Source of the DNA: a phage
Direction: 5' to 3' (one strand)
Sequence record: NC_093712.1
DNA length: 41,039 nt
Position 1 is the stretch's first letter; each line of letters begins with the position of its first letter. A program made the position numbers and the translations under genes. Positions 4,743-30,330 of the stretch are shown piece after piece. The notes beneath the pieces are model-generated. The model searched no databases and had not been told where the DNA came from. It worked only from the letters and a program-made list of their open reading frames with translations.

Positions 4743-4772
4743 TTGCACACCCCAATATAATAGGGTACTATT
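4743..4772 (+). promoter_or_regulatory. sigma70-like promoter (TTGCAC-17-TACTAT) with operator AATAG-N4-CTATT at 4759-4772; drives plus-strand accessory island
   Basis: Motif CTTGCACACCCCAAyATAATAGGrTACTATTCAC also found upstream of genes at 24188..24153 and 22701..22667 (minus strand); followed by RBS GAGGAA and ATG at 4800. Confidence 0.5.
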
Positions 4773-4799
4773 CACCTGTAACTTACTGAGGAAATAATT

Positions 4800-7363: not shown

Positions 7364-7390
7364 AAAAGGCCCCGAAAGGGGCCTTAGTTT
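7364..7390. terminator. bidirectional rho-independent terminator
   Basis: AGGCCCC-GAAA-GGGGCCT hairpin flanked by A-run upstream and T-rich downstream; lies between convergent kinase and major tail genes. Confidence 0.75.
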
Positions 7391-11040: not shown

Positions 11041-11067
11041 AAAAGGGGCCGTAGCCCCTTTGTTTTT
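11041..11067. terminator. bidirectional rho-independent terminator after major capsid gene
   Basis: AAGGGGC-CGTA-GCCCCTT hairpin with TTTGTTTTT on plus and T-run on minus. Confidence 0.7.
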
Positions 11068-13025: not shown

Positions 13026-13257
13026 GGGTGATCACCTCTGATTTCGTCTTGCCTTCGTTATCGGCGGCTGCGGCCTTTGATTCATCCTGCTGCTGCCGTT
13101 GTGTTTTCTTCGCCAGCTCAGCCTGTGCTTTCTGCTGTTGCCGCGAAACGAGATTAGCGCGACCTTCGTTCCAGCCGCTGCGATACTGATAAATGCCGTG
13201 TGCGTAAGCCAGGATGATGAAACATGTTCCCGCTACGACAGTTGCTTTAAGATTCAT
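12871..13257 (-). CDS. i-spanin (Rz-like inner-membrane spanin)
   Basis: 128 aa, N-terminal TM segment ATVVAGTCFIILAYAHGIY, then coiled-coil QQQKAQAELAKK; embeds the lipoprotein ORF. Confidence 0.7.
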   Translation of the reverse strand: MNLKATVVAGTCFIILAYAHGIYQYRSGWNEGRANLVSRQQQKAQAELAKKTQRQQQDESKAAAADNEGKTKSEVITREVVKYIKTPGRSVCTFDPERVQLKSRAVANANSIPGYDDDAAAVQTGTAK

Positions 13258-13362
13258 GTTTCTCCTTTCTCGATAAGTAAAGCCCCGCCATAAAGCGGGG
13301 CGCTAGTCCTCATCATTTAAACATAGAAACGGCGTAATCTCAGTAAACCAGTTACTTTTTAC

Positions 13363-13522
13363 ACAAGCAATAGAGTATGGCCCTTCCGAACGCGTCAGCG
13401 TAACTACACTCAGGACTTACGTCCCGCTCCGTTACCTGCCCGCGCCGCGGTCGCTTGTTCATACTTCACAAGCTCAGGTGGAGCTTAGCACATTTTCAGT
13501 GAAAAGTCAACTATTCGAATAG
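13363..13522 (-). promoter_or_regulatory. conserved promoter plus structured leader element, copy 1 (TTGACT-17-TGnTAAGCT promoter at 13510..13482, then conserved hairpins)
   Basis: ~145 nt shared with 24338-24482 (blocks TATGGCCCTTCCGAAYGCGTCAGCG, CGGTCGCTTGTTCATACTTCACAAGCTCAGG, GAGCTTA, AAAAGTCAA); no conserved ORF; followed by hairpin GCGCCCCGC/GCGGGGC (13281-13305) before spanin RBS. Confidence 0.5.
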
Positions 13523-13572
13523 TTTATTCCAACATTTACAATTATGTGGAATAACTGGAATAATCACAGGCG

Positions 13573-13606
13573 CTAAAAAGCCCCTTTCGGGGCTTAAGTT
13601 TATTCT
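13573..13606. terminator. rho-independent terminator (bidirectional)
   Basis: AAGCCCC-TTTC-GGGGCTT hairpin with flanking T/A runs; just past stop of gene 13600..14061. Confidence 0.7.
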
Positions 13607-15145: not shown

Positions 15146-15163
15146 AAAGCCCCTTTCGGGGCT
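15146..15163 (-). terminator. hairpin terminator between portal and head morphogenesis genes
   Basis: AAAGCCCC-TTTC-GGGGCT followed on minus strand by TTTCTTAT. Confidence 0.5.
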
Positions 15164-16678: not shown

Positions 16679-17929
16679 TTAAAGTGCGAAAGTCACCGGG
16701 ATGTTGATTACTGGTTTAACCACCGGCATCTCGTAAACTACAGGATAGCCGAGAGCATCCGCCATATGGTCAATGATGCCGTCTTTAGCTGGCTCTCCGT
16801 TATCGTCGTATGCCTGCTGCTCCAGCGTCTTCGCTATCTCAGGGCATAAGTGGTCGTTAATCCACAGTTTACCTTTTTCCAGTGCGGTATTCACGGCTAA
16901 AACACGGTCTTTAACCGGAGGGTTGGCGGATTTAGCGCGAACATCGAAACCTGCCTGCTGGAGTAACGCAATATCTGAGATTGACGCCGAGTTGGTCTTG
17001 CGGTTCTTGCCGCTGGCGTCCGGGTAAACGACTATGCGGTGGCCCTGCGACCTCCACTTCTCAGTAATTACGCGCACGGTATCCGGTGTATCGAACAGGC
17101 CTTTCAGTTCTGCTACCGCGTGCCAGCCGTCTTTACGTTGCACATACACGGCGCTTGCGTTCTTCGTAACGTTGAAGTCCTGCCCGATGTACAACGTGTC
17201 ACCCGGTTGAATTACCTCTTTGCTGCGGTGCTTACGGCGGTCATATGCGTAATACACGCTGCCGGAGGTAAGGTTGACGAACTCACCATTCAGATACGCG
17301 TTAATCAACTGCGCCGGATAAGTCTCGGTCAGCGAACTAATGTAGTCAGGCGGCAGGAATCGCGCGTTCTCGTGTGTAGAAGCCTGCACCATCGAGTAAC
17401 TCGGCGTCGGGTTCTCTTTGAACTTGGCGTAGACGAACTTGAACCCTTCCGGTGTCGTGGTGACAGAGATGTGGTTAATTACGCCAGGAATAACAAGACG
17501 CATACGGGCCACAATTTTGTTCCACGCCAGTTCAGCTTTCTCGCGGCTCAATACATCCAGCTCATCCACGACTGCCGCAGCGATTTTGAAGCCGACGATA
17601 GAGCCTGGGTTATCCATCGAACGGCAGATAACAGTTCCGAGAACCGTCTTACCGCGAGTAACCACGACTTCTTTGTCGCCAGATTTAACCAGCACATCGA
17701 GGCCGAGCAGGTTAGCGGCTTCCTCAAATGTCGGGTAGAAGATGTCACGGATAGCCGGGTATGTCGGGCCGAAGTAACCCAGGCGCGTACCTGGATGCTT
17801 GAGCATAAACGTAAGCAGGTCAAGGCAGCCAACAAATGTCTTTCCGCTGCCGAAGCCGCCGACATATGCCTTATATTTGTTATCACAATTCAGGAACAGC
17901 GCCTGCGGTGCGGATAGCTGAATACTCAT
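16679..17929 (-). CDS. terminase large subunit
   Basis: 416 aa; Walker A GGFGSGKT near N-terminus, acidic nuclease-type C-terminal half; ATGA-coupled to small subunit. Confidence 0.85.
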   Translation of the reverse strand: MSIQLSAPQALFLNCDNKYKAYVGGFGSGKTFVGCLDLLTFMLKHPGTRLGYFGPTYPAIRDIFYPTFEEAANLLGLDVLVKSGDKEVVVTRGKTVLGTVICRSMDNPGSIVGFKIAAAVVDELDVLSREKAELAWNKIVARMRLVIPGVINHISVTTTPEGFKFVYAKFKENPTPSYSMVQASTHENARFLPPDYISSLTETYPAQLINAYLNGEFVNLTSGSVYYAYDRRKHRSKEVIQPGDTLYIGQDFNVTKNASAVYVQRKDGWHAVAELKGLFDTPDTVRVITEKWRSQGHRIVVYPDASGKNRKTNSASISDIALLQQAGFDVRAKSANPPVKDRVLAVNTALEKGKLWINDHLCPEIAKTLEQQAYDDNGEPAKDGIIDHMADALGYPVVYEMPVVKPVINIPVTFAL

Positions 17930-18471
17930 TCCCCTACCTCACCCATATTCGTTGTTACAATTTTACCTACAGGCTCTGCAACACTAAAAATAATCTCAGT
18001 CGGTGCCGTTTCTTCGGTGGATTCGACTGGTTTCTCTTTACCGAGGCCCAGTTTAGCTGCGGCGAACGTAGCAGAGATGCCCGCGGCCCCTGTCTCAGTG
18101 AAGTACGCCTCTTCCAGTGCCTGTGCTGTCTCGTATGCTTCTGCAAATGCAGGAATCTCGCGCAGCCACAGCTTAATAATCGGGATAGTGACGCCGATGT
18201 GCAGGGCGAAGCGGGCCAGTGACGGAGGTTTATCCTGAATCAGCGGGCGTTCGTCACCCTTAGACGTAGGCACGAGTTCCCACGACGTGCGGTCGAAGAA
18301 CTCGATTAACGCGTCGCAATAGTCCGGGTCCCACAACGCTGCGGAATTACGGGACGATTGATAAAGGCTCTGTTTACCGCGCGGTCGTTTACGGCGGCGG
18401 TTTGCGCTAACAGCTTCTTCATGTGCAGCTTGCACCACCTCTGGCGATGGCTGCTTGAGTTTCAGCTTCAT
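17926..18471 (-). CDS. terminase small subunit
   Basis: ORF immediately upstream of large terminase; ATG at 18471 has AAGGGGA RBS (track start 18510 lacks RBS). Confidence 0.6.
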   Translation of the reverse strand: MKLKLKQPSPEVVQAAHEEAVSANRRRKRPRGKQSLYQSSRNSAALWDPDYCDALIEFFDRTSWELVPTSKGDERPLIQDKPPSLARFALHIGVTIPIIKLWLREIPAFAEAYETAQALEEAYFTETGAAGISATFAAAKLGLGKEKPVESTEETAPTEIIFSVAEPVGKIVTTNMGEVGE

Positions 18472-18562
18472 AGAATCCCCTTGCATATGCGTCTGACCAT
18501 CAGAGCGCACCAGACGCGCCCTACGCGTCTAAAGGGATTATATAAGGTGATTGGGCGGGATG

Positions 18563-18589
18563 TACAGAAAAGCCCTCGGTAGAGGGCTT
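18563..18589 (-). terminator. rho-independent terminator separating early-left operon from packaging genes
   Basis: AAGCCCTC-GGTAG-AGGGCTT hairpin followed on minus strand by TTTTCTGT. Confidence 0.6.
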
Positions 18590-18687
18590 GTATCAGTTGT
18601 ATAGGCCGTGGCGTGGTGCTCTTTTACCGTCGCCGCCGTAATGGTCGTTAGCTACGGGAATGGCCCAGGCGTTAGGGATGATTAGTA

Positions 18688-18849
18688 GTCTCATTTGAAG
18701 AAACCATCCTTGACAAGCTGACGGTATAGTTTAGCTGCGTAACGCTCTGCCTGGCCTTTGCGCCGAAATATTTTCCCATTAACTGAATACTTATTTAACT
18801 CTGGCTCGTACCAAACTTGGTTGTCGATGAACTCCAGAATACTAATCAT
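18688..18849 (-). CDS. hypothetical small protein (53 aa)
   Basis: Manually found; strong RBS GAGGAG, ATGA coupling to upstream gene. Confidence 0.45.
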
Positions 18850-19082
18850 CCCCCACTCTCCTCTTTAGCAATACGTTGCTCAGTTTTAGTGATACCCCGG
18901 CGCGTGAATAACACCGGGCTTGTCTTAACGTGCGTCATCAGACGGTTGTTATAAATTACATGGCGCTCGCAGTTAACGTCTTTGCTGTACTTGGCAATCG
19001 TCATTTCGTTGATGCCGGTTTGTCGGCATGTCTCAGCCATCGCGCCGTATTCTTTAATCAGGTTTGGAATGCTGGTAATCAT
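18846..19082 (-). CDS. hypothetical small protein with possible HTH
   Basis: ATGA-coupled start at 19082 (track ORF extends to 19106); segment TCRQTGINEMTIAKY is HTH-like. Confidence 0.45.
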   Translation of the reverse strand: MITSIPNLIKEYGAMAETCRQTGINEMTIAKYSKDVNCERHVIYNNRLMTHVKTSPVLFTRRGITKTEQRIAKEESGG

Positions 19083-19770: not shown

Positions 19771-19916
19771 TTCTTCTCTCCTGCATAAGCTGCTTTAAGT
19801 GTCTGCATCGCGGCGAACCAGAACGCGTCCGCTGGAATGCTGTTGCTCAGGTTACTAACGGCGATGCGCGCCATCAGTTGTGCATCTTTGAATGCCTCGG
19901 TATCTGTGATTTTCAT
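19767..19916 (-). CDS. hypothetical small protein (49 aa)
   Basis: Manually found ORF MKITDTEAFKDAQLMARIAV...; first gene after terminator 20001-20033. Confidence 0.35.
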   Translation of the reverse strand: MKITDTEAFKDAQLMARIAVSNLSNSIPADAFWFAAMQTLKAAYAGEKK

Positions 19917-20000
19917 CTTCTCTACTCCGTTCTCGTTGTCGATGGAGTAAATATAATAGGGTCGCAGGTAATAGTCAACTAGTCATTACAGAAAACAGAT

Positions 20001-20033
20001 AAAAAAAAAATCCCGGCTGGGTCAGGGCCGGGA
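20001..20033 (-). terminator. strong rho-independent terminator
   Basis: TCCCGGC-loop-GCCGGGA hairpin followed on minus strand by T10 (A10 at 20001-20010 on plus). Confidence 0.8.
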
Positions 20034-20104
20034 TAAAACTGGAGCGCAGAGGGATGGAACAGGAGGTGATTTAAGTATCGTCGGATTAGTCTCAGGTGTC
20101 AATT

Positions 20105-20265: not shown

Positions 20266-20855
20266 TCATTTAACCGCCCTACCGATAGCCTCAGCCTCTT
20301 GCCACGGTTTACCGTCGAACAGCGCCAGACGCCCGGCTGTACGGCGACGCAGGCCAAGTAGTGGTTTGCCGTTCTGGTTGATGAACAGCGCCAGCTTGGC
20401 CCGCAGCGTCGCAGTATCACCGGAACGCAGTGCCTTACCCGTGCCGGTAGTAGCTGCAATCACACCGGCACCAGCGTTATACACCAGGTCGCACATTGCA
20501 CGAACCCCTTCATGAAGGTGGGGGACGGAACGCAGTGCCTACCCGTGCCGGTAGTAGCTGCAATCACACCGGCACCAGCGTTATACACCAGGTCGCACAC
20601 TGCATCGAACTGCGCCTGTGTCAATGAATGGTGTGCTGCCGCATCGACCGCGGCCACGGCCTTAGCCATATCGCGATTCAGTAACAGGAGGCCTTGTCCT
20701 GGGGTGATGGTCTTGCCTGGAGTCACGTCCGGCCCGTAGTGCCCGTACCCAATAGTCAGGTACTTCTCGTTCGGCGTAGCGCGATACGCAGTTCCGCGGA
20801 ATCCCTCGAACGCGGCACAGAAATGCAATCCATTATCTGAAATATTTCGAGACAT
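20266..20855 (-). pseudogene. endolysin (GH24 phage lysozyme) with reading frame interrupted by 105-bp imperfect tandem duplication
   Basis: N-part (20460..20855) has lysozyme motif FEGFRGTAYRATPNEKYLTIGYGHYG; C-part (20266..20496) continues in another frame; both fragments contain CDLVYNAGAGVIAATTGTG encoded by the duplicated DNA. Confidence 0.7.
20421..20599. repeat. imperfect tandem direct repeat (2 copies, period 105 bp) with palindrome CCTTCATGAAGG at junction
   Basis: 20421-20495 and 20526-20599 are identical except a 1-nt indel; similarity extends ~10 nt further; 12-bp perfect palindrome at 20507-20518 between copies. Confidence 0.8.
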
Positions 20856-22666: not shown

Positions 22667-22701
22667 AAATGAATAGTAGCCTATTCTATCTTAGTGTGCA
22701 A
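22667..22701 (-). promoter_or_regulatory. promoter (TTGCAC-17-TACTAT) with operator AATAG-N4-CTATT (22672-22685)
   Basis: Same conserved motif as 4743-4772 and 24153-24188, oriented toward downstream minus-strand genes. Confidence 0.45.
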
Positions 22702-24152: not shown

Positions 24153-24188
24153 TAAGTGAATAGTATCCTATTATGTTGGGGTGTGCAA
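24153..24188 (-). promoter_or_regulatory. early-left promoter (TTGCAC-17-TACTAT) with operator AATAG-N4-CTATT (24159-24172)
   Basis: Conserved motif; -35 at 24188..24183, -10 at 24165..24160; RBS and ATG follow ~30 nt downstream on minus strand. Confidence 0.5.
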
Positions 24189-27689: not shown

Positions 27690-27762
27690 TTGATATGTGA
27701 ATAGTACCATATTAATTATTTTAGAAAAGCCCATTGACAAGTGAATAGTTCGCTATTATAGT
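27690..27762 (+). promoter_or_regulatory. tandem early-right promoters (TTGATA-17-TAATTA and TTGACA-17-TATAGT), each with operator AATAG-N4-(C/A)TATT in the spacer; overlaps divergent -10 TATAAT for the XRE gene
   Basis: Operators at 27700-27713 and 27744-27757; minus-strand TATAAT at 27760..27755. Confidence 0.55.
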
Positions 27763-30301: not shown

Positions 30302-30330
30302 GTTGACACCTGAATAGTAAGCTATTATAG
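30302..30330 (+). promoter_or_regulatory. promoter TTGACA-17-TATAGT with operator AATAG-N4-CTATT (30312-30325)
   Basis: Perfect -35, operator in spacer; upstream of SSB-like gene. Confidence 0.55.

What the first reader, a model, noticed from the sequence alone, without database searches (positions are those of the whole stretch)
18511..18600. Terminator plus candidate late promoter and hairpin upstream of the terminase genes
On the minus strand a terminator (18563-18589) ends the early-left operon, followed by a perfect TATAAT (18543..18538) with no recognisable -35 and then a 7-bp inverted repeat AGACGCG/CGCGTCT (18512-18530) in the leader of the small terminase gene. A -10 without a -35 is typical of activator-dependent late promoters; the inverted repeat could be an activator site or RNA structure.
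Basis: inference. Interest (0 to 1): 0.35.

Follow-up and report, generated by a model that had tools for sequence, protein, structure and literature searches.

The report
Terminator, promoter and structured terminase leader
This is the conserved control region in front of a phage's DNA-packaging genes: a transcription stop signal, a host-type start signal, and a folded RNA leader that probably prevents the packaging enzyme from being translated from stray upstream transcripts. It is well built but ordinary in kind.

Summary
The window is a Kagunavirus (Guernseyvirinae; 97% identical to Escherichia phage G AB-2017). The terminator hairpin lies at 18589..18570. The 7-bp inverted repeat lies at 18530..18512.

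Two points need correcting. First, a -35-like TGTACA (18566..18561) sits 18 nt upstream of the -10. It is invariant in Kagunavirus and Jerseyvirus although the spacer sequence differs, and Cornellvirus and phiEap-2-like phages have TTGCCT at 17 nt instead. Second, the inverted repeat is not an activator site. It is the first of two adjacent RNA hairpins that start at the predicted +1 (about 18530). Both hairpins show RNA-type covariation: 99% of cells pair, and there are 55 G·U cells valid only on the sense strand. The element occurs once per genome.

In addition, the -10 and discriminator region (18544..18531) is complementary to the terS Shine-Dalgarno..AUG region (18482..18469). Read-through RNA would therefore mask the ribosome site (about 10 kcal/mol to open), while promoter-initiated RNA would not (about 1-2 kcal/mol). 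This logic is known from T4 genes e, soc and I-TevI.

No transcription start site has been mapped, so the promoter and the mechanisms are inferred. The finding is a new member of known kinds and of moderate interest.

The parts
18593..18694 (-). Unannotated 33-aa ORF (MRLLIIPNAWAIPVANDHYGGDGKRAPRHGLYN). It is the last gene of the upstream small-ORF operon. It is coupled by an ATGA overlap to the 52-aa ORF 18849..18691, and its stop codon lies 4 nt before the terminator stem.
   Evidence: It gives a full-length match to phrog_32259 (E = 1.4e-16). The ORF is annotated in phage XY1.
18564..18589 (-). Intrinsic terminator: stem AAGCCCUC/GAGGGCUU (18589..18582 with 18577..18570), loop UACC, tail UUUUCUGU.
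   Evidence: Folds at -13.4 kcal/mol and is present in the MFE and centroid folds. Across 53 distinct sequences 97.6% of cells pair, 17 sequences carry a U-A -> G-C compensatory change, and the loops vary freely. ARNold predicted the homologue in fBC-Eco01 as T23 (PMC9825357 Table S2).
18561..18566 (-). -35-like hexamer TGTACA (4 of 6 matches to TTGACA), abutting the terminator U-tract.
   Evidence: It is invariant in every Kagunavirus/Jerseyvirus sequence selected by TerS similarity. TTGCCT occupies the equivalent place in the Cornellvirus/phiEap-2 clades.
18543..18560 (-). Promoter spacer of 18 nt.
   Evidence: Its sequence differs between clades while its length stays 17-18 nt.
18537..18542 (-). 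-10 hexamer TATAAT (TACAAT in Jerseyvirus).
   Evidence: A2 and T6 are invariant in 53 sequences. The first three bases are conserved even in clades where they have no RNA pairing partner.
18531..18544 (-). Anti-TIR strand UAUAUAAUCCCUUU (the -10 plus the discriminator). It is complementary to the terS SD..AUG and is present only in RNA that reads through from upstream.
   Evidence: Duplex energy is -11.3 kcal/mol here and -15.6 in L001-type phages, where it forms 14 consecutive pairs. The helix shows 90.6% paired cells with 2 pairs changed on both sides. The terS TIR ranks 2nd of 47 TIRs in the window, and shuffles give p = 0.003.
18530..18530 (-). Predicted transcription start (A, 7 nt after the -10; +/-1 nt).
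   Evidence: Inferred from sigma-70 geometry. It has not been mapped.
18511..18531 (-). Leader hairpin 1: UAGACGCGU-AGG-GCGCGUCUG.
   Evidence: Folds at -12.0 kcal/mol. Its 9 pairs are 98.6-100% paired, 7 of the 9 vary, and G.U intermediates occur.
18487..18510 (-). Leader hairpin 2: GUGCG-C-UCUGA-UGG-UCAGA-CGCAU.
   Evidence: Folds at -10.3 kcal/mol. There is a compensatory C-G <-> A-U change, with 12 versus 12 sequences. A-U/G.U alternate at the closing pair. The internal loop varies in size between clades.
18469..18482 (-). terS translation initiation region AAGGGGAUUCUAUG (the SD through the AUG at 18471..18469).
   Evidence: The opening cost is 9.8 kcal/mol in read-through RNA and 0.7-2.2 kcal/mol in promoter-initiated RNA.
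17926..18471 (-). Small terminase gene (181 aa). Its stop overlaps the terL start (ATGA).
   Evidence: phrog_3064 'terminase', E = 1.8e-73. It is annotated as the small terminase in relatives. The junction is shown.

Best explanation
The 18469-18589 stretch (minus strand) is one compact, conserved control module for the packaging and morphogenesis operon (terS-terL-portal...). It has four proposed parts.

(1) An intrinsic terminator stops transcription of the upstream small-ORF (nin-like) operon.

(2) A host sigma-70-type promoter follows directly: TGTACA, 18 nt, TATAAT. It has a weak -35 and a perfect -10, and it starts a new transcript at about 18530.

(3) That transcript begins with two adjacent stem-loops (18531..18511 and 18510..18487), followed by a free Shine-Dalgarno sequence. 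The 5'-terminal hairpin most likely protects the long late mRNA from 5'-end-dependent decay (RppH/RNase E), as the ompA-type 5' stem-loops do.

(4) RNA that escapes the terminator also carries the -10/discriminator sequence. That sequence pairs with the terS SD..AUG and closes a three-way junction around the two hairpins. terS, and the translationally coupled terL, would then be translated only from promoter-initiated RNA. This is the arrangement known from T4 genes e, soc and I-TevI and from IS10 fold-back inhibition.

What is shown: the sequences, their conservation and covariation, and the predicted energies.

What is inferred: promoter activity, the start site, mRNA stabilisation and translational gating. 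My own probabilities are: terminator about 0.9; RNA hairpins about 0.85; promoter about 0.75; fold-back gating about 0.4; 5' stabiliser about 0.4.
For: Identity and context: the window is a Kagunavirus with the gene order lysis cassette - small ORFs - NinH - terS - terL - portal, all on one strand.

Conservation: the terminator-to-ATG stretch is nearly invariant in 40 distinct loci chosen by TerS similarity, while the DNA upstream of it is mosaic.

Promoter footprint: the -35 and -10 hexamers are conserved. The spacer sequence diverges but stays 17-18 nt in four clades. Cornellvirus and phiEap-2-like phages use TTGCCT-17-TATAAT.

Terminator: 97.6% of cells pair and there is a compensatory change.

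Hairpins: 19 pairs, with 99.1% of cells paired against 93.1% in shuffles (0 of 500 shuffles reach this). The covariation score is 0.230 against 0.129 (0 of 500). Sliding the structure gives only 18-51% pairing. There are 55 G.U cells against 2 A.C cells, so the pairing is specific to the sense strand.

Homology across clades: a covariance model built from Kagunavirus plus Jerseyvirus finds the Cornellvirus/phiEap-2 leaders at 45-53 bits.

The leader is conserved even where TerS is only 30% identical.

Position: hairpin 1 starts 5-7 nt after the -10 in all clades.

Fold-back: the MFE structure of read-through RNA sequesters the SD in all 8 representatives, and RNA starting at +1 does not. Duplexes are up to 14 bp. 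Two pairs change on both sides, including the third -10 position T->C matched by A->G next to the AUG. The extra TIR opening cost in read-through RNA is 4-14 kcal/mol in Kagunavirus, 6.6-13 in Jerseyvirus and 5-6 in phiEap-2-like phages.

Precedents: T4 e/soc/I-TevI (PMC3014915) and 5' stem-loop stabilisers (references in PMC3997798).
Against: No transcription start site or promoter assay exists for any member of the group.

In the single sequence, promoter-like sites occur at chance frequency.

The -35 lacks the TTG core.

The outer (anti-TIR) helix is less well kept than the hairpins. Two of its 12 pairs are often mismatched. It is weak in Cornellvirus, with a 1-2 kcal/mol difference. Another gene's TIR (14061) is equally complementary to the anti-TIR strand, and part of the complementarity is generic pyrimidine/SD pairing.

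Much of the apparent covariation reflects a few deep splits between four clades rather than many independent events.

An upstream terminator already limits read-through, which makes a second safeguard look redundant.
Confidence: 0.6

Rival explanations
1. This would be an activator-dependent late promoter with a -10 but no functional -35, and the inverted repeat AGACGCG/CGCGTCT would be the DNA binding site of a phage late activator.
For: The -35-like hexamer is poor (TGTACA, without TTG) and the spacer is 18 nt. A promoter of that kind could need help. The downstream genes are structural and packaging genes. The repeat is a perfect palindromic DNA sequence.
Against: The repeat lies at about +1..+20, not upstream of the promoter. 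It is unique in the window: there is no copy with fewer than 3 mismatches and no second covariance-model hit, so it does not mark other late operons. Changes in its arms are wobble-compatible on the sense strand only, which a symmetric DNA site would not favour. The -35 position is conserved, with fixed spacing, in four clades. No Ogr/C/Q/gp55-like regulator turned up among the 10 neighbouring ORFs scanned.
Confidence: 0.08
2. There is no promoter here. terS would be expressed from RNA that reads through, or is antiterminated at, the terminator. The conserved TATAAT region would be kept only because it forms the 5' strand of a three-way-junction RNA that masks the terS ribosome site. A factor (protein, temperature or ribosome standby) would open that structure late in infection.
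For: The -10/discriminator is complementary to the SD..AUG over up to 14 bp, and two positions covary. The three-way junction is the MFE structure in all clades. Promoter-like matches are at chance level in a single sequence.
Against: This model does not explain the invariant -35-position hexamers or the fixed 17-18 nt spacer across a divergent spacer sequence. The TAT of TATAAT is conserved in Cornellvirus/phiEap-2 clades, where it has no pairing partner. Without a promoter, an 11-kb essential operon would depend wholly on leakage through a -13 kcal/mol terminator.
Confidence: 0.12
3. The repeats would act as DNA. They would be either part of the pac site recognised by the small terminase for headful packaging, or an operator for a repressor sitting at +1..+45. 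The motif AGACGC occurs three times: 18530, 18517 (inverted) and 18494.
For: Guernseyvirinae are predicted headful/pac packagers (PMC6776780 and PMC9409062). pac sites often lie in or next to terS. There are three copies of CAGACGC-like words within 45 bp.
Against: The leader is conserved in Cornellvirus/phiEap-2 phages whose TerS is only 30% identical, with an N-terminal region that cannot be aligned. A TerS-specific site should co-vary with its protein. The third 'copy' changes (CAGAC -> CATAC) together with its pairing partner, which is helix behaviour rather than motif behaviour. G.U-type changes are strand-specific. The heptamer CAGACGC is at chance frequency in the window (9 found against 6.7 expected).
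Confidence: 0.07
4. The hairpin-2 region would be coding. terS would start at GTG 18510 (ATG in many relatives), with the AGG loop of hairpin 1 acting as its Shine-Dalgarno. That would give a 194-aa TerS or a short upstream ORF coupled to terS.
For: The ORF is open from 18510. A start codon (ATG or GTG) is present at this position in all clades, and the frame is kept in Kagunavirus, Jerseyvirus, Cornellvirus and phiEap-2 itself (39, 39, 45 and 42 nt). Several database records annotate this start.
Against: The distance is 43 nt, which is out of frame, in L133, L137, L140 and two independent metagenome contigs. The paired changes TCT->TAT and CAG->CAT are non-synonymous in that frame but compensatory in the helix. 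The start codon is buried in a 10-bp stem. The downstream ATG 18471 has a strong SD at proper spacing and is the start annotated in close relatives.
Confidence: 0.06

Closest known systems
T4 gene e (lysozyme), soc, gene 49 and I-TevI: a late promoter placed inside an inhibitory TIR hairpin (McPheeters et al. 1986; reviewed in PMC3014915). IS10/IS50 fold-back inhibition of read-through transcripts is also relevant (recalled from my own knowledge).
   Same: The 5' strand of the helix that masks the SD/AUG overlaps the promoter. Transcripts started upstream can therefore form the helix, and transcripts started at the promoter cannot. The predicted effect is large, about 9 kcal/mol here.
   Different: The promoter here is a host sigma-70 type, not the T4 gp55 TATAAATA type. 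The two strands are 50 nt apart and are bridged by two conserved hairpins forming a three-way junction, rather than a simple hairpin. An intrinsic terminator sits directly upstream. Nothing has been tested experimentally.
5'-terminal stem-loop mRNA stabilisers (ompA and papA 5' UTRs; Emory, Bouvet and Belasco 1992; Arnold et al. 1998; cited in PMC3997798).
   Same: The stem-loop is predicted to begin 0-2 nt from the 5' end of a long mRNA. There is a second hairpin, then an accessible ribosome site, as in the ompA leader.
   Different: There is no sequence similarity. The 5' end is predicted, not mapped, and no half-life data exist. The conserved loop sequences (AGG, UGG) are not required by that model and hint at something more.
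Standard terminator-promoter junctions between phage operons, such as those predicted throughout Kagunavirus genomes (PMC9825357 Table S2).
   Same: An intrinsic terminator is followed at once by a sigma-70-type promoter. The homologous terminator was already predicted in fBC-Eco01 as T23.
   Different: That paper called no promoter or leader structure at this junction. Here the -35 abuts the U-tract, and the module is conserved across four clades, more strongly than the terS gene itself.
HK022 put RNAs (cis-acting two-stem-loop antiterminator transcripts; King et al. 1996, recalled from my own knowledge).
   Same: Two adjacent stem-loops are transcribed just downstream of a promoter, ahead of an operon that contains several intrinsic terminators.
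   Different: The covariance model finds no similarity anywhere in the HK022 genome. The stems here are shorter (9 and 10 bp). The function is untested.

Membership tests
Intrinsic (Rho-independent) terminator | Stable GC-rich stem-loop in the RNA | tested here: met
   An 8-bp stem folds at -13.4 kcal/mol. 97.6% of cells pair, there is a compensatory change and the loops vary freely.
Intrinsic (Rho-independent) terminator | U-rich tract directly 3' of the stem | tested here: inconclusive
   The tail is UUUUCUGU, and 2 of the 4 consecutive U already lie in the stem. It fell below the threshold of the simple scan. ARNold accepted the homologue.
Intrinsic (Rho-independent) terminator | Placed after the last stop codon of an operon, on the coding strand | tested here: met
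   The stop of the 33-aa ORF is at 18595..18593 and the stem starts at 18589.
Intrinsic (Rho-independent) terminator | Termination measured in vivo or in vitro | not testable with these tools
   No 3'-end data are available.
Sigma-70 promoter | -10 hexamer close to TATAAT with A2 and T6 | tested here: met
   TATAAT at 18542..18537 matches 6 of 6. It is TACAAT in Jerseyvirus. A2 and T6 are invariant in 53 sequences.
Sigma-70 promoter | -35 hexamer close to TTGACA | tested here: inconclusive
   TGTACA matches 4 of 6 and lacks the TTG core. Sister clades have TTGCCT, also 4 of 6 but with TTG. The hexamer is conserved in its position.
Sigma-70 promoter | Spacer of 17 +/- 1 nt, with length conserved rather than sequence | tested here: met
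   The spacer is 18 nt here and 17-18 nt in all four clades, with unrelated spacer sequences.
Sigma-70 promoter | Mapped transcription start and RNA polymerase dependence | not testable with these tools
   No start-site data were found in the literature.
Activator-dependent phage late promoter (P2 Ogr, Mu C, T4 gp55 types) | Activator site upstream of or overlapping the -35, shared by all late operons | tested here: not met
   The inverted repeat lies downstream of the -10 (about +1..+20) and is single-copy in the genome.
Activator-dependent phage late promoter (P2 Ogr, Mu C, T4 gp55 types) | Phage-encoded late activator or sigma factor | tested here: inconclusive
   None was recognised among the 10 ORFs between 21775 and 17929 in Pfam or PHROGs. 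The rest of the genome was not scanned.
Promoter-inside-stem translational gating (T4 e/soc/I-TevI; IS10 fold-back) | The SD and/or AUG pair with an upstream segment | tested here: met
   The duplex is 13-14 bp at -11.3 to -15.6 kcal/mol. It is the MFE structure in 8 of 8 representatives. This rests on prediction and covariation only.
Promoter-inside-stem translational gating (T4 e/soc/I-TevI; IS10 fold-back) | The transcription start lies between the two strands of the inhibitory helix | tested here: inconclusive
   This is true if the predicted promoter is used, because the 5' strand is the -10 plus discriminator itself. The start site has not been mapped.
Promoter-inside-stem translational gating (T4 e/soc/I-TevI; IS10 fold-back) | Upstream-initiated transcripts exist and are poorly translated | not testable with these tools
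   This needs RNA mapping and reporter or toeprint assays.
5'-terminal stem-loop mRNA stabiliser (ompA type) | Stem-loop within a few nt of the 5' end | tested here: inconclusive
   Hairpin 1 starts 5-7 nt after the -10 in all clades, which is +1 to +2 of the predicted RNA. The 5' end has not been mapped.
5'-terminal stem-loop mRNA stabiliser (ompA type) | Longer half-life that depends on the hairpin | not testable with these tools
   No decay data are available.
HK022 put antiterminator RNA | Sequence/structure similarity to putL/putR | tested here: not met
   Covariance model R1 gives no hit at E <= 10 in the HK022 genome.
HK022 put antiterminator RNA | Cis-acting read-through of downstream terminators | not testable with these tools
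   Downstream intrinsic terminators exist in the operon, but their read-through has not been measured.
pac site of a headful-packaging phage | The site co-varies with the TerS that recognises it | tested here: not met
   The leader is conserved at 45-53 bits in clades whose TerS is only 30% identical.
Any Rfam family | Match to a curated covariance model | tested here: not met
   There is no hit at gathering score in the whole window. The only hit in 18300-18900 is a chance snoRNA match at E = 0.23.

The most novel reading that the evidence does not exclude
The two conserved stem-loops at the very start of the terS transcript, with their invariant AGG and UGG loops, could be a put-like cis-acting RNA. 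It would modify the transcribing host RNA polymerase so that it reads through the five or more intrinsic terminators embedded in the roughly 11-kb packaging and morphogenesis operon (15163..15148, 13595..13578, 13303..13282, 11061..11042, 7385..7366). That would be a factor-independent processive antitermination element in a virulent siphovirus family, unrelated in sequence to the HK022 put sites.
Probability: 0.05. Interest if true: 0.7.

Novelty: new member of a known kind. Interest (0 to 1): 0.35.

Why it matters
Guernseyvirinae (the Jersey/K1G-like phages) are widely isolated for phage therapy and food biocontrol. Several hundred genomes exist, yet their transcriptional programme has only ever been predicted.

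This module is the best-conserved non-coding element I found in the region, and it is conserved more strongly than the terS gene it precedes. It gives a concrete, testable picture of how the packaging and structural operon is insulated from upstream transcription.

It also corrects annotation. terS starts at the ATG with the strong SD (18471 here), not at the upstream GTG/ATG used in several reference records. If the fold-back gating is real, it would extend the T4 'late promoter inside an inhibitory hairpin' principle to a sigma-70-dependent siphovirus. It would also supply a small, portable insulator part (terminator + promoter + gated ribosome site) for phage engineering.

If the promoter and gating are not real, the finding reduces to a terminator and a structured leader. 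That would be ordinary.

Tried and rejected
Rfam: no family matched in the region or in the whole window.

Second copy of the repeat: searched for the inverted repeat and for the TGTACA-N18-TATAAT layout elsewhere in the window. No copy has fewer than 2-3 mismatches. CAGACGC is at chance frequency. A covariance model found no second copy.

Late regulator: Pfam and PHROGs scans of the 10 neighbouring ORFs found only DUF2737, NinH (below the cutoff) and the terminase.

Literature:
- Two Kagunavirus genome papers give only in-silico promoters and terminators. One predicts this terminator but no promoter here.
- One loosely specified literature search was wasted.
- The only temporal RNA-seq of a relative (vB_Eco_K1B4) has no start-site or operon resolution and no expression table.
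- No paper gives the pac position.

Alignment problem: MAFFT misaligned the 3' arm of hairpin 2 in the Cornellvirus/phiEap-2 clades. I appended an artificial constant 3' anchor (CCCCACCCCACCCC), left unpaired, to force the internal gap. The pair counts rest on that alignment.

PHIRE motif: the 20-mer TGAATAGTAcccTATTATAT, published as a 'phage RNAP promoter', is unrelated to this site. It sits in the spacer and -10 of other, near-consensus promoters.

Metagenome scan: a degenerate hairpin pattern returned 43 loci but no new clade.

HK022 put similarity: none.

Upstream GTG/ATG start: the frame is not conserved, so I rejected it.
Full report
**What the window is.** The region around the finding is 97% identical to Escherichia phage G AB-2017. 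It is 93-97% identical to K1G, K1ind1-3 and other Kagunavirus members of the Guernseyvirinae. In those records the local gene order, all on one strand, is: holins, endolysin, about eight small ORFs (including a DUF2737 protein and NinH), small terminase, large terminase, portal. In the window these genes lie on the minus strand. terS runs 18471..17926 (181 aa, phrog_3064) and overlaps the terL start in an ATGA. The ORF lister extends terS to a GTG at 18510. Close relatives annotate the ATG at 18471, which has the Shine-Dalgarno AAGGGGA at proper spacing.

**Checking the observation (minus strand).**
- The stop of an unannotated 33-aa ORF is at 18595..18593.
- The stem-loop AAGCCCTC-tacc-GAGGGCTT occupies 18589..18570, with the tail TTTTCTGT.
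- AGACGCG/CGCGTCT is at 18530..18524 and 18518..18512, as stated.
- Contrary to 'no recognisable -35', the scan pairs TATAAT with TGTACA (18566..18561) at 18 nt, matching 10 of 12 positions.

Taken alone, the sequence is not beyond chance. There are 3 promoter-like sites in 3 kb against 2.6 expected. The terminator was not called by the simple scan because too few U follow the maximal stem. The leader fold has z = -2.2. Everything below rests on comparison with relatives.

**What lies upstream.** The roughly 100 nt between the 52-aa ORF and the terminator is not empty. It holds a 33-aa ORF coupled by ATGA, with a full-length match to phrog_32259, and the ORF is annotated in phage XY1. The terminator therefore follows the last stop codon of an operon. 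That operon starts at 19916 behind its own good promoter, TTGACT-17-TATATT at 19978..19950. It is a nin-like small-ORF operon downstream of the lysis cassette on the same strand, not a leftward early operon.

**Comparative evidence for the terminator and promoter.** I fetched loci in three ways: by TerS similarity (50 loci), by DNA patterns and from GenBank.
- In 40 distinct upstream regions chosen only by TerS similarity, the stretch from the terminator to the ATG is almost invariant within Kagunavirus. The DNA just upstream of the terminator is mosaic.
- Jerseyvirus phages keep TTTTCTGTACA and have TACAAT for TATAAT. Their spacers are unrelated in sequence but 18 nt long (17 in one).
- Two further clades carry the same layout with TTGCCT-17-TATAAT, again with the -35 abutting the terminator U-tract. 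These are Cornellvirus SP-031-like and Enterobacter phiEap-2-like phages.
- Two conserved hexamers separated by a divergent spacer of fixed length is the classic footprint of a sigma-70 promoter.
- In the Cornellvirus/phiEap-2 clades the first half of TATAAT has no RNA pairing partner and is still invariant. This argues that promoter function, not only RNA pairing, constrains it.
- The terminator stem pairs in 97.6% of cells. It carries a U-A to G-C compensatory change in 17 of 53 sequences, has G.U variants and has freely varying loops.
- ARNold predicted the homologous terminator in fBC-Eco01, but no promoter was called there (PMC9825357 Table S2).

**The inverted repeat is RNA.** I counted pairs on an alignment of 24 distinct sequences from the four clades, covering the 19 pairs of the two hairpins. 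An artificial unpaired 3' anchor was needed to make MAFFT place the internal gap.
- 99.1% of cells form standard pairs, against 93.1% in shuffles (0 of 500 shuffles reach this).
- The covariation score is 0.230 against 0.129 (0 of 500).
- Sliding the partners by 1-3 columns gives only 18-51% pairing.
- Ten pairs vary and three change on both sides.
- The clearest cases are C-G to A-U in hairpin 2 (12 versus 12 sequences) and G-C to U.G and U.G to G-C in hairpin 1.
- Fifty-five cells are G.U or U.G, which pair only in the sense-strand RNA. Only two cells are A.C.
- The internal loop of hairpin 2 changes size between clades (0, AC or CA inserted) while both stem halves are kept.

A covariance model built from Kagunavirus plus Jerseyvirus alone recovers the Cornellvirus/phiEap-2 elements full-length at 45-53 bits. 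It finds no second copy in the window. No near-copy of the repeat exists elsewhere either. There is no Rfam match. A caveat applies: the sequences fall into four clades, so the number of independent evolutionary events is perhaps 8-10. The shuffle control does not account for relatedness.

**Position relative to the promoter.** Hairpin 1 begins 5-7 nt after the -10 in every clade. With the usual 7-nt distance the transcript would start at A 18530, so the stem-loop would sit at the extreme 5' end. It fits what is known of 5'-terminal stem-loops that protect E. coli mRNAs from 5'-end-dependent decay (Emory et al. 1992, Bouvet and Belasco 1992 and Arnold et al. 1998, cited in PMC3997798). That function is inferred. 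The invariant loops (AGG, UGG) are not explained by it.

**A further feature: the promoter region is an anti-ribosome-site.** Folding RNA that includes the -10 region gives a three-way junction in all eight representatives of the four clades. In it, the segment just after and including the -10 pairs with the terS SD region. RNA starting at +1 leaves the SD free.
- In the window UAUAUAAUCCCUUU (18544..18531) pairs with AAGGGGAUUCUAUG (18482..18469) with one mismatch, at -11.3 kcal/mol.
- In L001-type phages the duplex is 14 consecutive pairs at -15.6 kcal/mol and includes the AUG.
- Between Kagunavirus and Jerseyvirus two pairs change on both sides. One is the third -10 base T to C, matched by A to G next to the AUG. 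The other is C to U matched by G to A in the SD.
- The computed cost of opening the TIR is 9.8 kcal/mol in read-through RNA against 0.7-2.2 kcal/mol in promoter-initiated RNA.
- The read-through minus promoter-initiated difference is 4-14 kcal/mol in Kagunavirus, 6.6-13 in Jerseyvirus and 5-6 in phiEap-2-like phages, but only 1-2 in Cornellvirus.

The controls temper this. The cognate TIR ranks 2nd of 47 SD-containing TIRs in the window for complementarity to the anti-TIR strand. Shuffles give p = 0.003. Another gene (14061) is equally complementary, and two positions of the helix are often mismatched. The arrangement matches a documented mechanism. In T4, genes e, soc, 49 and I-TevI are transcribed early in an untranslatable form, because a helix masks the TIR. 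Late promoters lying in the 5' strand of that helix give translatable RNA (PMC3014915). IS10 fold-back inhibition works the same way (my own knowledge). I rate this reading at about 0.4.

**Rivals.**
- A 'no promoter, RNA switch only' model explains the complementarity. It does not explain the -35 and spacer footprint, or the conserved TAT without a partner.
- A pac-site or operator (DNA) model is disfavoured. The leader is conserved where TerS is only 30% identical, with an unalignable N-terminus, and the changes are strand-specific. The group is nevertheless predicted to package by headful from a pac site, and the pac position is unknown.
- An N-terminal extension or uORF from GTG/ATG 18510 is open in most clades. 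It is out of frame (43 nt) in three IMG/VR and two metagenome sequences. The paired changes are non-synonymous in that frame.
- A put-like antiterminator is the most novel reading not excluded. The operon downstream does contain several intrinsic terminators with no room for internal promoters, for example at 15163..15148, 10 nt before the next start. However, there is no similarity to HK022 and no positive evidence.

**Literature.** No transcription start mapping exists for this subfamily in the held library. The single temporal RNA-seq study of a Kagunavirus groups NinH, lysis and structural genes together as 'middle' and gives no operon detail. Whether the promoter is 'late' therefore cannot be judged.

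**Verdict.**
A terminator plus promoter is supported. An activator-dependent promoter with a DNA site is not.
- The element is a conserved terminator-promoter-structured-leader module. It plausibly has dual-use promoter/anti-TIR gating and a 5' stabiliser hairpin.
- It is a new, undescribed RNA leader motif of known mechanistic kinds, and of moderate interest.

Noticed in passing
window 13257-13600 (minus strand): The region between the 153-aa ORF and the 128-aa ORF holds four elements in order. First, a terminator (13595..13578). Second, a promoter TTGACT-17-TAAGCT (about 13507..13479). Third, a roughly 200-nt ORF-free leader that is strongly structured (z = -3.3). Fourth, a strong terminator (13303..13275) only about 10 nt before the next ribosome site. 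The layout recalls lambda pR'-6S RNA-tR' (Q antitermination), an attenuator or a small RNA. There is no Rfam hit.
   Followed up: partly
window 4755-4774 (-), 22670-22689, 24157-24176, 27698-27717, 27742-27761, 30311-30330 (+): The near-palindromic 20-mer TGAATAGTAcccTATTATAT occurs six times against 0 expected. It lies in the spacer and -10 of near-consensus promoters (TTGACA-17-TATAGT at 27734 and 30303). It is probably a shared operator. It was published as a 'phage RNA polymerase promoter' for fBC-Eco01, although these phages encode no RNA polymerase.
   Followed up: partly
window 18593-18694 (minus strand): A 33-aa ORF that G AB-2017 and ULINTec2 leave unannotated (full-length match to phrog_32259). 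Its DNA (18609-18696) also matches T1-like phages of about 50 kb (tunzivis, Tuinin, Poky, mar001J1) at 75-88% identity. It is therefore a small gene shared between unrelated phage groups.
   Followed up: partly
window 20421-20604: The endolysin gene carries a roughly 104-nt tandem duplication (copies 20421-20500 and 20526-20604). It is absent from G AB-2017. It splits the gene into a 131-aa ORF and a 76-aa ORF. This is either an assembly artefact or a real disruption.
   Followed up: partly
window 20010-20102 (minus strand): The promoter TTGACA-17-GATACT is followed after about 10 nt by CACCTCCT, a perfect anti-Shine-Dalgarno-like word. Then comes a strong terminator with a 9-10 T run. Together these would make an RNA of about 70 nt, just upstream of the promoter of the small-ORF operon.
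   Followed up: no
window 15148-15163, 13578-13595, 13275-13303, 11042-11061, 7366-7385 (minus strand): Several good intrinsic terminators lie inside the packaging and morphogenesis gene block. At least one (15163..15148) lies only about 10 nt before the next start codon, leaving no room for a promoter. Late transcription must therefore read through them.
   Followed up: no
L129 (NC_021775) 19513; NC_021777 start; window 18510: Several reference records (FSL SP-031, Jersey and others) annotate terS from the upstream ATG/GTG, which lies inside leader hairpin 2. The conserved SD and the variable frame (39, 42, 43 or 45 nt) indicate that the downstream ATG is the real start.
   Followed up: yes
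L073 (SETP3, IMG/VR 641201315): SETP3 combines a Kagunavirus-type promoter spacer and -10 with a Jerseyvirus-type leader and terS. This places a recombination joint between the -10 and hairpin 1.
   Followed up: no
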